From Eledone cirrhosa (taxonomy: Eukaryota), in assembly GCA_964016885.1 (NCBI GenBank), contig OZ024740.1, positions 15,376,001-15,440,000 on the forward strand: a stretch of 64,000 nucleotides of DNA, in the 5' to 3' direction. Under the pieces are notes generated by a model. It did no database searches. It was not told the origin of the DNA and saw only the letters and a program-made list of their open reading frames with translations. Shown piece by piece: positions 42,752 to 62,568 of this stretch. The position numbers were made by a program, and so were the translations under genes. The first letter of the stretch is position 1; each line of letters begins with the position of its first letter.

Positions 42752-43272
42752 ATGTATATATAATGTATTTTGCAATACACTGTATGCTTAATTAAAAGCA
42801 TTTCGAAGACCTTACGCTATTGTTTTAGAGTAGTGACAGTCTCACTTACTTTAAATGTTCAGCAAACAGGGGAGATAAAGCTGACAGAGCTCTGTTTCGT
42901 ACTGATTGGTACTTATCAAAGCCAAGTACTCCACATGTTTTCTGAAAATCATGAATGTTTGATTCTTATAGAATTCTAGTAATAATCAGGAACTGATTAT
43001 ACAGAGCGGTTGCCGGTCGAGCAGAAATTGAAAATTAGAATTGGTGCTCTGAAATAGCGATATATATATGAATGTATATATAGTACGAAACAGAGCTCTG
43101 TCAGCTTTATCTCTCCTTGTTTGCTGAAAATTTAAAATAAGTGACACTGTCACTACTCTAAAACAATAGCGTAAGGTCTTCGAAATGCTTTTAATTAAGC
43201 ATACAGTGTATTGCAAAATACACTATATATACATTCATATATATATAGCTATTTCAGAGCACCAATTCTAAT
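42752..43272. mobile_element. Diverged ~320-bp retrozyme-like element: one monomer (-) joined to a partial inverted copy (+)
   Basis: Shares AGAGCGGTTGCCGGTC..GCAGAAATT..TGCTCTGAAATAGCGATATATA and CTGTATG..CATTT(C/T)GAAGACCT..CGCTAT with the 310-bp unit; inverted arms 42752-42902 and 43082-43234; in (TA)n. Confidence 0.8.
42880..42922 (-). ncRNA. Type I hammerhead, U3:A8 core variant
   Basis: Reverse complement: GCT-TTGATAA-GTAC(CAATCA)GTAC-GAAAC-AGAGCTCT-GTC-AGC. Confidence 0.78.
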
Positions 43273-43324
43273 ATATATATATATATATATATATATATAT
43301 ATATATATATATATATATATATGT

Positions 43325-43502
43325 ATATAGTTATGTAATAAACAACATAATATAAGTATTTCATTTACCAGTGGTTTCTTGAAACCAACCAAAATTGCTT
43401 TCATTCATCAGAATTCTGATGAATGAAAGCAATTTTGGTTGCTTTCATGAAACCACTGGTAAATGAAATACCTATCTTATGTTGTTTATTACATAACTAT
43501 AT
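43325..43502. mobile_element. ~180-bp fold-back element of two head-to-head hammerhead-bearing ends
   Basis: Near-perfect palindrome centred on GAATTC (43411-43416); + arm ATT-CTGATGA-ATGAAAGCAA(TTTTGG)TTGCTTTCAT-GAAACC-ACT-GGTA-AAT; between TA tracts. Confidence 0.8.
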
Positions 43503-43539
43503 ATATATATATATATATATATATATATATATATATATG

Positions 43540-57570: not shown

Positions 57571-57634
57571 TAGTATATATATATATATATGTATATATGT
57601 ATGTATGTAGTATATATATATATATGTATATATG

Positions 57635-60600
57635 TATGTGAATATAGACATAGAATATTCGAAAATATTCTGTATGTTTATAATAAACATTTTGAAGACC
57701 TAATCGCTATAGAATAGAATACGTCACGTATTACAATTAGATTCTCGATAAAAGCAAGGGAAGTAATCTACGCGTTTCATTCTCGTTAGAAATCATCAGG
57801 ACTACATATCCAGTGCTTTTATCGAGAATGACACAGCTAGAGACTTATAGAATACTTAGCTGTGTACAGGAACTGGTTTGAAAGAGCGGTTGCCGGTCCG
57901 GCAGAAATTAGAAATTGGAATAAATGCTCTGAAATAGCGATATATATGTGAATATAGACATAGAATATTCGAAAATATTCTGTATGTTTATAATAAACAT
58001 TTTGAAGACCTAATCGCTATAGAATAGAATACGTCACGTATTACAATTAGATTCTCGATAAAAGCAAGGGAAGTAATCTACGCGTTTCATTCTCGTTAGA
58101 AATCATCAGGACTACATATCCAGTGCTTTTATCGAGAATGACACAGCTAGAGACTTATAGAATACTTAGCTGTGTACAGGAACTGGTTTGAAAGAGCGGT
58201 TGCCGGTCCGGCAGAAATTAGAAATTGGAATAAATGCTCTGAAATAGCGATATATATGTGAATATAGACATAGAATATTCGAAAATATTCTGTATGTTTA
58301 TAATAAACATTTTGAAGACCTAATCGCTATAGAATAGAATACGTCACGTATTACAATTAGATTCTCGATAAAAGCAAGGGAAGTAATCTACGCGTTTCAT
58401 TCTCGTTAGAAATCATCAGGACTACATATCCAGTGCTTTTATCGAGAATGACACAGCTAGAGACTTATAGAATACTTAGCTGTGTACAGGAACTGGTTTG
58501 AAAGAGCGGTTGCCGGTCCGGCAGAAATTAGAAATTGGAATAAATGCTCTGAAATAGCGATATATATGTGAATATAGACATAGAATATTCGAAAATATTC
58601 TGTATGTTTATAATAAACATTTTGAAGACCTAATCGCTATAGAATAGAATACGTCACGTATTACAATTAGATTCTCGATAAAAGCAAGGGAAGTAATCTA
58701 CGCGTTTCATTCTCGTTAGAAATCATCAGGACTACATATCCAGTGCTTTTATCGAGAATGACACAGCTAGAGACTTATAGAATACTTAGCTGTGTACAGG
58801 AACTGGTTTGAAAGAGCGGTTGCCGGTCCGGCAGAAATTAGAAATTGGAATAAATGCTCTGAAATAGCGATATATATGTGAATATAGACATAGAATATTC
58901 GAAAATATTCTGTATGTTTATAATAAACATTTTGAAGACCTAATCGCTATAGAATAGAATACGTCACGTATTACAATTAGATTCTCGATAAAAGCAAGGG
59001 AAGTAATCTACGCGTTTCATTCTCGTTAGAAATCATCAGGACTACATATCCAGTGCTTTTATCGAGAATGACACAGCTAGAGACTTATAGAATACTTAGC
59101 TGTGTACAGGAACTGGTTTGAAAGAGCGGTTGCCGGTCCGGCAGAAATTAGAAATTGGAATAAATGCTCTGAAATAGCGATATATATGTGAATATAGACA
59201 TAGAATATTCGAAAATATTCTGTATGTTTATAATAAACATTTTGAAGACCTAATCGCTATAGAATAGAATACGTCACGTATTACAATTAGATTCTCGATA
59301 AAAGCAAGGGAAGTAATCTACGCGTTTCATTCTCGTTAGAAATCATCAGGACTACATATCCAGTGCTTTTATCGAGAATGACACAGCTAGAGACTTATAG
59401 AATACTTAGCTGTGTACAGGAACTGGTTTGAAAGAGCGGTTGCCGGTCCGGCAGAAATTAGAAATTGGAATAAATGCTCTGAAATAGCGATATATATGTG
59501 AATATAGACAGTTCCTGTACACAGCTAAGTATTCTATAAGTCTCTAGCTGTGTCATTCTCGATAAAAGCACTGGATATGTAGTCCTGATGATTTCTAACG
59601 AGAATGAAACGCGTAGATTACTTCCCTTGCTTTTATCGAGAATCTAATTGTAATACGTGACGTATTCTATTCTATAGCGATTAGGTCTTCAAAATGTTTA
59701 TTATAAACATACAGAATATTTTCGAATATTCTATGTCTATATTCACATATATATCGCTATTTCAGAGCATTTATTCCAATTTCTAATTTCTGCCGGACCG
59801 GCAACCGCTCTTTCAAACCAGTTCCTGTACACAGCTAAGTATTCTATAAGTCTCTAGCTGTGTCATTCTCGATAAAAGCACTGGATATGTAGTCCTGATG
59901 ATTTCTAACGAGAATGAAACGCGTAGATTACTTCCCTTGCTTTTATCGAGAATCTAATTGTAATACGTGACGTATTCTATTCTATAGCGATTAGGTCTTC
60001 AAAATGTTTATTATAAACATACAGAATATTTTCGAATATTCTATGTCTATATTCACATATATATCGCTATTTCAGAGCATTTATTCCAATTTCTAATTTC
60101 TGCCGGACCGGCAACCGCTCTTTCAAACCAGTTCCTGTACACAGCTAAGTATTCTATAAGTCTCTAGCTGTGTCATTCTCGATAAAAGCACTGGATATGT
60201 AGTCCTGATGATTTCTAACGAGAATGAAACGCGTAGATTACTTCCCTTGCTTTTATCGAGAATCTAATTGTAATACGTGACGTATTCTATTCTATAGCGA
60301 TTAGGTCTTCAAAATGTTTATTATAAACATACAGAATATTTTCGAATATTCTATGTCTATATTCACATATATATCGCTATTTCAGAGCATTTATTCCAAT
60401 TTCTAATTTCTGCCGGACCGGCAACCGCTCTTTCAAACCAGTTCCTGTACACAGCTAAGTATTCTATAAGTCTCTAGCTGTGTCATTCTCGATAAAAGCA
60501 CTGGATATGTAGTCCTGATGATTTCTAACGAGAATGAAACGCGTAGATTACTTCCCTTGCTTTTATCGAGAATCTAATTGTAATACGTGACGTATTCTAT

Positions 60601-62568
60601 TCTATAGCGATTAGGTCTTCAAAATGTTTATTATAAACATACAGAATATTTTCGAATATTCTATGTCTATATTCACATATATATCGCTATTTCAGAGCAT
60701 TTATTCCAATTTCTAATTTCTGCCGGACCGGCAACCGCTCTTTCAAACCAGTTCCTGTACACAGCTAAGTATTCTATAAGTCTCTAGCTGTGTCATTCTC
60801 GATAAAAGCACTGGATATGTAGTCCTGATGATTTCTAACGAGAATGAAACGCGTAGATTACTTCCCTTGCTTTTATCGAGAATCTAATTGTAATACGTGA
60901 CGTATTCTATTCTATAGCGATTAGGTCTTCAAAATGTTTATTATAAACATACAGAATATTTTCGAATATTCTATGTCTATATTCACATATATATCGCTAT
61001 TTCAGAGCATTTATTCCAATTTCTAATTTCTGTCGGACCGGCAACCGCTCTTTCAAACCAGTTCCTGTACACAGCTAAGTATTCTATAAGTCTCTAGCTG
61101 TGTCATTCTCGATAAAAGCACTGGATATGTAGTCCTGATGATTTCTAACGAGAATGAAACGCGTAGATTACTTCCCTTGCTTTTATCGAGAATCTAATTG
61201 TAATACGTGACGTATTCTATTCTATAGCGATTAGGTCTTCAAAATGTTTATTATAAACATACAGAATATTTTCGAATATTCTATGTCTATATTCACATAT
61301 ATATCGCTATTTCAGAGCATTTATTCCAATTTCTAATTTCTGCCGGACCGGCAACCGCTCTTTCAAACCAGTTCCTGTACACAGCTAAGTATTCTATAAG
61401 TCTCTAGCTGTGTCATTCTCGATAAAAGCACTGGATATGTAGTCCTGATGATTTCTAACGAGAATGAAACGCGTAGATTACTTCCCTTGCTTTTATCGAG
61501 AATCTAATTGTAATACGTGACGTATTCTATTCTATAGCGATTAGGTCTTCAAAATGTTTATTATAAACATACAGAATATTTTCGAATATTCTATGTCTAT
61601 ATTCACATATATATCGCTATTTCAGAGCATTTATTCCAATTTCTAATTTCTGCCGGACCGGCAACCGCTCTTTCAAACCAGTTCCTGTACACAGCTAAGT
61701 ATTCTATAAGTCTCTAGCTGTGTCATTCTCGATAAAAGCACTGGATATGTAGTCCTGATGATTTCTAACGAGAATGAAACGCGTAGATTACTTCCCTTGC
61801 TTTTATCGAGAATCTAATTGTAATACGTGACGTATTCTATTCTATAGCGATTAGGTCTTCAAAATGTTTATTATAAACATACAGAATATTTTCGAATATT
61901 CTATGTCTATATTCACATATATATCGCTATTTCAGAGCATTTATTCCAATTTCTAATTTCTGCCGGACCGGCAACCGCTCTTTCAAACCAGTTCCTGTAC
62001 ACAGCTAAGTATTCTATAAGTCTCTAGCTGTGTCATTCTCGATAAAAGCACTGGATATGTAGTCCTGATGATTTCTAACGAGAATGAAACGCGTAGATTA
62101 CTTCCCTTGCTTTTATCGAGAATCTAATTGTAATACGTGACGTATTCTATTCTATAGCGATTAGGTCTTCAAAATGTTTATTATAAACATACAGAATATT
62201 TTCGAATATTCTATGTCTATATTCACATATATATCGCTATTTCAGAGCATTTATTCCAATTTCTAATTTCTGCCGGACCGGCAACCGCTCTTTCAAACCA
62301 GTTCCTGTACACAGCTAAGTATTCTATAAGTCTCTAGCTGTGTCATTCTCGATAAAAGCACTGGATATGTAGTCCTGATGATTTCTAACGAGAATGAAAC
62401 GCGTAGATTACTTCCCTTGCTTTTATCGAGAATCTAATTGTAATACGTGACGTATTCTATTCTATAGCGATTAGGTCTTCAAAATGTTTATTATAAACAT
62501 ACAGAATATTTTCGAATATTCTATGTCTATATTCACATATATATCGCTATTTCAGAGCATTTATTCCA
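57635..62568. mobile_element. Retrozyme-like array 2: 310-bp hammerhead unit, ~6 copies (-) then ~9.9 copies (+); 16 HHRs
   Basis: HHRs start at 57763+310n, n=0-5 (-) and 59579+310n, n=0-9 (+); GTAGTC-CTGATGA-TTTCT(AACG)AGAAT-GAAAC-GC-GTA-GATTAC. Confidence 0.93.

What the first reader, a model, noticed from the sequence alone, without database searches (positions are those of the whole stretch)
42752..62568. Recurrent insertion architecture: one internal inversion, outward-facing 3' ends staggered by ~30-38 nt
Seen at three loci (42752-43272, 47429-50856, 57635-62568): a minus-oriented block then a plus-oriented block. The left end always stops at about the TATATG motif, and the right end continues ~29-38 nt further, to GCTATTTCAGAGCA..TTC(C/T)A(A). 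Neither end coincides with the HHR cleavage site. Known: Penelope insertions often form partial tandems with an inverted pLTR and a short 3' tail on one end. Inference: both target strands prime reverse transcription at fixed positions on the same RNA, one probably via the internal (AU)n stretch annealing to (TA)n DNA.
Basis: partly seen in the sequence, partly recalled or inferred. Interest (0 to 1): 0.82.

Follow-up and report, generated by a model that had tools for sequence, protein, structure and literature searches.

The report
Two-armed Penelope-type ribozyme insertions
A small non-coding repeat with a self-cutting RNA motif sits at more than a thousand places in this animal genome as two back-to-back runs of copies whose outer ends almost always lie one at each of two spots about 35 bases apart, which likely records a Penelope-type jumping-gene enzyme copying the RNA from both sides of a DNA cut.

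Summary
The architecture is real and genome-wide. All three loci are hammerhead retrozymes (locus 1: 321-nt family A; loci 2-3: 310-nt family B, at least 16,000 units). Of 63 complete two-armed family-B insertions, 62 have one long end (about position 196) and one short end (152-170); none has two long ends. 'Left short, right long' is only orientation (30 left, 26 right). Inversion points are near-random with excess microhomology, readable target duplications are 12-15 nt, flanks are not mirrored, and the two arms share their sequence variant in 59 of 63 loci (chance about 15%). The short end fits annealing of (TA)n to the AU tract; the long end lies 12 nt past a conserved block in both families. 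Best reading: target-primed reverse transcription from both DNA strands by a Penelope-like enzyme, probably rolling round a monomer circle. 'Same RNA' is not obligatory: a few loci mix templates. Inverted copies with a one-sided tail and two start sites are published for Penelope elements; the one-of-each rule and multi-unit matched arms were not in the papers I read. No partner element, RNA or cleavage was shown. This scan already reported this family many times elsewhere in this genome.

The parts
42752..43083 (-). Locus 1, family A (321-nt unit) short-end arm, about 1.07 units; the outer end merges into (TA)n between 42740 and 42752
   Evidence: L050
42883..42919 (-). Family A hammerhead core with changed bases at the two paired core positions (U3-A8 type; that this variant is active is recalled, not tested)
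   Evidence: for position; fold shows stem II only, not the full ribozyme fold
43082..43272 (+). Locus 1 long-end arm (unit positions 17-207), ends 12 nt past the conserved GCTATTTCAGAGC block
47429..48239 (-). Locus 2, family B (310-nt unit) short-end arm, 2.6 identical units, outer end at unit position 161
48224..48239 (.). Locus 2 inversion junction: 16-nt overlap formed by the unit's own inverted repeat (positions 44-59 and 281-296); the same junction recurs in L179
48224..50856 (+). Locus 2 long-end arm, 8.5 identical units, outer end at unit position 196
48485..48527 (+). Type I hammerhead of one family B unit: stem I 6 bp, CUGAUGA, stem II 5 bp, GAAA, 2-bp stem III, predicted cut after 48521
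   Evidence: (z -4.9); no Rfam match at gathering score
50823..50830 (+). (AU)4 tract of the last unit (positions 163-170): the short-site zone
50822..50856 (+). One-sided 35-nt tail (positions 162-196) between the short and long sites
57626..57639 (+). Locus 3 target duplication, left copy (14 nt; its last 5 nt are shared with the short end)
57635..59510 (-). Locus 3 short-end arm, 6 units, outer end at position 165; four variants fixed in every unit
59509..62568 (+). Locus 3 long-end arm, 9.9 units, outer end at position 194; same four variants plus one single-unit change
62569..62582 (+). Locus 3 target duplication, right copy

Best explanation
These are hammerhead retrozyme insertions built as two head-to-head arms with one long and one short outer end, likely made by a Penelope-like reverse transcriptase/endonuclease that primes cDNA synthesis from both strands of a staggered cut in (TA)n DNA. 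Shown: the layout, the one-of-each rule, 12-15-nt direct target duplications, near-random inner ends with microhomology, matched variants in both arms. Inferred steps: (1) nicks 12-15 nt apart leave two 3' ends; (2) one starts at the long site, set by distance (about 12 nt) from a conserved block, not by pairing; (3) the other anneals its TA end to the AU tract 26-35 nt further 5' on the RNA; (4) each enzyme runs many laps of a uniform template, most likely a circular monomer, often the same molecule or the same source; (5) the two cDNA ends stop independently and are joined by microhomology repair, giving the single inversion.
For: 62 of 63 long+short, 0 long+long in family B, including 21 of 21 picked by a short internal pattern rather than by shape; no minus-then-plus pair of long ends within 30 kb among the first 100 of 1,171 long-end junctions. 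Family A, 64 distinct loci counted by hand: 44 two-armed (30 long+short, 2 short+short, 0 long+long, 12 with one end off-site), 20 one-armed. Informative direct duplications in 11 of 56, all 12-15 nt, against about 1 expected. Short arm longer in 26 of 56, Spearman -0.02. Microhomology of 2 nt or more in 25 of 45 clean junctions against 18% expected. Arms match in 59 of 63 against 15% by permutation; 17 of 17 in position-picked loci; variants private to one locus are fixed in both arms, e.g. a 2-nt deletion across 22 units. 686 crossings of the cut site show no unit-specific indel. Long end sits 12 nt past the shared block in A and B although the intervening sequence differs and nearer AT sites are skipped. 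A Penelope-like protein nicks and extends both strands and starts at two sites that bound the tail in vitro (PMC11167929).
Against: No partner element found: the shared A/B block matched nothing else in 934 kb of held loci or in 30 copies of one PLE family. No RNA, circle or cleavage shown. Four of 63 loci have discordant arms; in L080 and L181 the innermost 1-2 units of one arm carry the other arm's allele, and L085 has a foreign-variant inner unit. L185 has one variant in the first lap of both arms only, which a monomer circle cannot give. In vitro the two start sites did not differ between strands and were not homologous to the target (PMC11167929), unlike the AU pairing inferred here. Two enzymes on one circle might give correlated arm lengths; none is seen. 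One-armed insertions exist (7 of 72 in B, 20 of 64 in A).
Confidence: 0.7

Rival explanations
1. Same two-strand priming, but the templates are uncut linear multimer transcripts of a few young uniform source arrays, and the two arms may come from two molecules.
For: L185 first-lap variant in both arms; discordant or mosaic arms in L037, L080, L181; minimal stem III may cut poorly; uncut RNA was the main substrate in vitro (PMC11167929); some second arms are other elements.
Against: Linear copying cannot regrow long arrays from a new single-unit variant, yet 22 distinct variant sets occur, several private to one locus and fixed in up to 22 units. Apart from L181 and L185, none of the 53 single-unit variants that the other arm also covers is shared.
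Confidence: 0.17
2. Twin priming puts in only one or two units per arm; the arrays grow and are homogenised afterwards by unequal exchange or conversion, as proposed for retrozyme satellites (bioRxiv 10.64898/2026.07.22.740005).
For: A few variants recur in several units of one arm (L082 3 of 13, L087 2 units); the older family A copies I sampled are mostly short.
Against: Within arrays variants are nearly all single-unit, as for units born together; both arms are long and matched; arms of 10-28 units carry 0-10 changes.
Confidence: 0.07
3. One priming event only; the cDNA folds back or self-primes and the second arm is a DNA copy of the first (self-priming idea of PMC3846280), or the ends are trimmed by the endonuclease (PMC8557442).
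For: Explains matched variants and, for L080 and L181, the inner units with the other arm's allele.
Against: A fold-back arm cannot exceed its template, yet either arm is the longer one about half the time (26 of 56); junction offsets show no palindrome excess (4 of 56 within 10 nt, 3.8 expected); both ends occur alone in one-armed copies.
Confidence: 0.05
4. Fold-back sequencing chimeras or assembly errors.
For: The exact locus 3 junction was not bridged by any listed contig in three runs of one sample; those contigs are short and the sample may be another individual.
Against: None of 57 loci has exactly mirrored flanks (4 show 80-95% inverted matches); arms have different ends, direct duplications and unshared single-unit changes; contigs of public runs hold other minus-to-plus joints (one in two runs of that sample) and TA-joined ends near 198-203 and 170.
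Confidence: 0.01

Closest known systems
Animal non-LTR retrozymes (PMC7229834; review PMC7761336; bioRxiv 10.64898/2026.07.22.740005)
   Same: Tandem non-coding units of about 300 nt, GC 34%, one type I hammerhead per unit, dispersed arrays, target duplications longer than 4 nt, PLEs in the same genome; circles copied into multimers were proposed there.
   Different: The passages and parts I read do not describe two opposed arms, two fixed outer ends or matched variants; PMC7229834 has no occurrence of 'inverted' or 'opposite'; the 2026 preprint favours local growth of arrays. Expression and cleavage were shown for those elements, not here.
Insertions of endonuclease-bearing Penelope-like elements (PMC8557442, PMC3846280)
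   Same: Head-to-head inverted 5'-truncated copy, 30-40-nt tail often on one end only, (TA)n targets, duplications of about 8-10 nt in rotifer copies.
   Different: No ORF here; arms are many-unit concatemers; the one-of-each rule is counted here; those papers explain the tail by endonuclease resolution and the inversion by self-priming.
Anolis Poseidon PLE in vitro (PMC11167929)
   Same: Both strands nicked and extended, predicted dimer, two internal start sites that bound the tail, downstream of the hammerhead cut, AT-rich target.
   Different: There the sites did not differ by strand and lacked homology to the target; template was linear; no retrozyme or circle tested.
LINE-1 twin priming (original model recalled; passages in bioRxiv 10.1101/2024.12.14.628481)
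   Same: Both target ends extended by reverse transcription, head-to-head product, sometimes two different RNAs.
   Different: No poly(A); both starts are internal and recurrent; the long arm does not stop at the second primer site (6 of 56, 6.5 expected); each arm spans many units.

Membership tests
Non-LTR retrozyme | Short tandem units (about 150-450 nt), GC below 50%, no coding capacity | tested here: met
   310 and 321 nt, GC 0.345 and 0.343, longest stop-free run 59 and 80 codons
Non-LTR retrozyme | Type I hammerhead motif in each unit | tested here: met
   Family B: core and stems by sequence and fold; fixed variants fall at the free N7 position, stem II and loops, none in the invariant core. 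Rfam gave no match at gathering score. Family A has a variant core and its full fold was not recovered
Non-LTR retrozyme | Dispersed copies, target duplications longer than 4 nt when visible, no LTR/PBS/PPT | tested here: met
   At least 16,319 units, 1,171 long-end junctions, duplications 12-15 nt; PBS/PPT not searched for separately
Non-LTR retrozyme | Self-cleavage and accumulation as circular RNA | not testable with these tools
   No RNA run listed; needs bench work
PLE-mobilised insertion | Head-to-head inverted truncated copy with a 30-40-nt tail at one end | tested here: met
   62 of 63; median stagger 35 nt
PLE-mobilised insertion | Preference for AT-rich or (TA)n targets | tested here: met
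   TA runs beside the short end in 54 and the long end in 52 of 56 loci
PLE-mobilised insertion | Sequence shared with the terminal repeat of an autonomous PLE of the same genome | tested here: inconclusive
   No match in one PLE family (30 copies) or in other held loci; one family A arm is joined head-to-head to a truncated PLE reading frame (L113); most PLE families were not examined
Autonomous Penelope-like element | ORF with reverse transcriptase and GIY-YIG endonuclease | tested here: not met
   No ORF in either unit
LINE-1-type twin priming | Poly(A)-primed first strand that stops near the second, internal priming site | tested here: not met
   No poly(A); long-arm inner ends within 161-196 in 6 of 56, 6.5 expected

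The most novel reading that the evidence does not exclude
Twin rolling-circle target-primed reverse transcription: a Penelope-like dimer loads one circular ribozyme RNA, assigns one staggered start site to each DNA strand, and both enzymes lap the circle, so that a kilobase-scale 'satellite' array and the long-unexplained inverted-plus-tail shape of Penelope insertions arise in one step.
Probability: 0.42. Interest if true: 0.82.

Novelty: new variant of a known kind. Interest (0 to 1): 0.62.

Why it matters
How Penelope-like elements make their inverted, one-tailed insertions is called undefined in PMC8557442, and which enzyme moves animal retrozymes was only proposed (PMC7229834, PMC7761336). 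More than a thousand very young copies here give a counted rule (one start site per strand, never two long ends), a cut geometry (12-15 nt), a candidate cis-signal (block conserved between two families) and a template signature (matched many-unit arms). Each is a direct prediction for the existing in vitro system, and the full genome census would separate circle from multimer templates.

Tried and rejected
Rfam scan of the window: no match at gathering score. Partner search: a Pfam accession I recalled is not in the library; a PLE endonuclease fragment from the window found a family with 8,104 candidates, but 30 copies lack the A/B block; no weak match elsewhere; a variant pattern returned only A and B copies. 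Collision idea (short arms stopping at 209-210): dropped, because the query carried the C209T change and selected for it; the recurrence of C209T in that set is likewise not used. Short-arm inner ends are slightly non-uniform (Rayleigh p 0.03, KS p 0.09, selected set included): not used. Run-off at the ribozyme cut: 1 of 112 inner ends near it, 4 expected. RNA-editing idea: A307G lies on at least four backgrounds, but private fixed variants show 2 A-to-G against 3 T-to-C, so no support. U6-type promoter: TA-tract spacing fits, upstream element does not match convincingly. Sequencing runs: no RNA holder listed; a raw-read run of another organism laid no read. Inverted-looking flanks seen by eye in L031 were direct once oriented. 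Rows left out of counts: L088 (right end beyond my fetch), L201 (N gap), L144 and L128 (cut off), duplicates L071, L076, L107, L126, L131, L132; L191 left out of junction counts; L035, L084, L191, L037 left out of the lap analysis; five junction values were set by hand.
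Full report
What is there. The window holds two 310-nt tandem arrays that each switch strand once and a shorter related locus. The unit carries CUGAUGA, a 5-bp stem II, GAAA, a 2-bp stem III and a 6-bp stem I on a long rod: a type I hammerhead, with the predicted cut after unit position 31. Rfam does not call it at gathering score. Locus 1 belongs to a second family with a 321-nt unit, 70-77% like the first and most alike over positions 90-266. With the ribozyme strand as sense, each locus is head-to-head with both 3' ends outward. 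Family B has at least 16,319 units and 1,171 exact long-end junctions to (TA)n; family A gave 1,053 candidates.

Sample. I examined 72 family B insertions: 2 in the window, 19, 20, 25 picked by a 23-nt internal pattern and 6. Sixty-three are two-armed with both ends in view, 7 are one-armed, one runs into an N gap and one beyond my fetch. The first two sets were chosen by similarity, the later ones without regard to shape.

The end rule. Sixty-two of 63 have one long and one short end; none has two long ends. The exception, L037, is short+short and its arms differ at three sites. All 21 two-armed loci of the pattern-picked set obey the rule. Among the first 100 long-end junctions on the contig no minus-then-plus pair lies within 30 kb; the three closest pairs proved to be six separate long+short insertions. 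Family A, counted by hand over 64 distinct loci, gives 30 long+short, 2 short+short, 0 long+long, 12 with one end off-site and 20 one-armed.

The two sites differ in kind. Short ends fall at 152-170, with 30 at 161 and 13 at 170 of 56. These are the two registers in which a TA primer pairs with the AU tract, one of them with a single mismatch (read from the sequence). On two non-TA targets the short end is 157-158 (L086, L179). Long ends peak at 196 in B and 207 in A, both 12 nt past the shared block, although the sequence between differs and nearer AT dinucleotides are skipped. In B the site lies in a predicted loop closed by a 5-bp stem. I infer pairing for the short site and a protein- or structure-set distance for the long site.

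Target and junction. Eleven of 56 loci have a readable direct duplication, all 12-15 nt, against about one expected from mismatched flank pairs; 31 are pure TA on both sides and cannot be read. This geometry puts a 3' primer on each strand, each arm reading as cDNA from its own flank (inference). Long-arm inner ends are uniform, the offset between arms is uniform, and 25 of 45 clean junctions have 2 nt or more of microhomology against 18% expected; 10 of 55 have inserts. The short arm is the longer in 26 of 56 and lengths are uncorrelated, and near-palindromic junctions are not enriched. A single folded-back cDNA does not fit that.

Template. The arms share their variant set in 59 of 63 loci, against 15% by permutation, and in 17 of 17 position-picked loci. 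There are 22 variant sets; several are private to one locus yet fixed in all units of both arms, such as a 2-nt deletion over 22 units. Of 686 crossings of the cut site none has a unit-specific indel; 29 carry a fixed extra base nearby. Single-unit changes are almost never shared between arms. Regrowing long uniform arrays from one changed unit is what copying round a circle would give. Against a strict reading: L185 has one change in the first lap of both arms only; L080 and L181 have inner units with the other arm's allele; L085 has an inner unit of another variant set. Some one-armed loci continue head-to-head into another element that ends at its own TA tract (L048, L106, L060, L113); insertion beside an older element is not excluded for these. 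So one RNA is usual at most, and linear multimers, a shared source array or later conversion remain possible.

Artefact check. None of 57 loci has exactly mirrored flanks. Contigs of three public runs of one sample show other minus-to-plus joints and TA-joined ends in both zones, but none of those listed spans the locus 3 junction itself.

Partner. Not found. The window and genome hold several PLE families, one with 8,104 candidates; that the window fragments are PLEs rests on recalled GIY-YIG motifs, since Pfam named none of them. L113 joins a family A arm to a truncated reading frame like the one at window 10570-11779; this is one case.

Literature. PMC11167929 (parts 1-2 of 4 and passages): a PLE protein nicks and extends both strands and starts at two sites that bound the tail, with no strand difference. 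PMC8557442 and PMC3846280 (passages): inverted copies with a one-sided 30-40-nt tail, explained by endonuclease resolution or self-priming. PMC7229834 and PMC7761336 (passages): retrozymes, circles, PLEs as likely movers. bioRxiv 10.64898/2026.07.22.740005 (parts 1-3 of 5): homology to PLE termini, local array growth. bioRxiv 10.1101/2024.12.14.628481 (passages): LINE-1 twin priming. I read no supplements; those of PMC11167929 (Fig. S2) and PMC7229834 could show end maps that bear on novelty. Searches returned no paper describing two-armed retrozyme arrays or a one-site-per-strand rule; the library lacks most subscription papers.

Earlier scan notes. After forming my reading (recorded) I found many unchecked notes on this same family elsewhere in this genome with the same interpretation. 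They are not independent evidence, and this finding is a repeat within the scan.

Verdict. Observation confirmed with corrections; interpretation partly supported. A known element class carrying a known insertion hallmark, with a counted asymmetry rule and a template signature that make the PLE mechanism testable. Interest 0.62.

Noticed in passing
window 48491-48800 laid on runs X4, X5, X6: In three runs labelled as other organisms, from three studies, the 310-nt unit is one closed 340-nt contig at depth 18-34 with 2-3 differences and no flanks, against 476 contigs in X1; 18 organism codes hold part of its words. Trace carry-over, diet DNA, low-copy relatives or horizontal spread are all possible; it is no evidence of a circular RNA.
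   Followed up: partly
window 50823-50856: The TA tract starts about 30 nt upstream of the long site, the TATA-to-start spacing of this genome's U6 genes; the upstream U6 element is not clearly matched.
   Followed up: partly
window 52933-54207, 43640-44583, 11659-12827, 43278-43549: Other head-to-head inverted pairs beside TA tracts, from unrelated families; 52933-54207 has a one-sided extension of about 84 nt and 43640-44583 carries a canonical-looking hammerhead.
   Followed up: no
L183 4176-4177, L197 2803-2804, L200 3175, L035 6482: Two loci of different variant sets share the same junction (unit positions 198 and 287), a one-armed copy also stops at 198, and L035 jumps between 288 and 203; possibly a structural pause.
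   Followed up: partly
L048 5127-5155; L107 3758-3846; window 16534-16765 and 57046-57310: An abundant short element ending in an ACAT/TA tail forms the opposite arm of two retrozyme insertions and also occurs twice in the window.
   Followed up: partly
L031, L035, L040, L043, L044, L048, L084 flanks; window 62569-62666: The TA flanks often hold locus-specific repeated units on both sides, as if the duplicated target were reiterated during or after insertion.
   Followed up: no
window 17180-20976 (minus), 51209-52600, 23441-25822, 10570-11779: A LINE with a 692-codon RT frame and three broken PLE-like fragments; one has tandem repeats inserted in its reading frame.
   Followed up: partly
L205-L215: A tandem cluster of about 30 U6 genes at 1.8-kb spacing on contig C19.
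   Followed up: no
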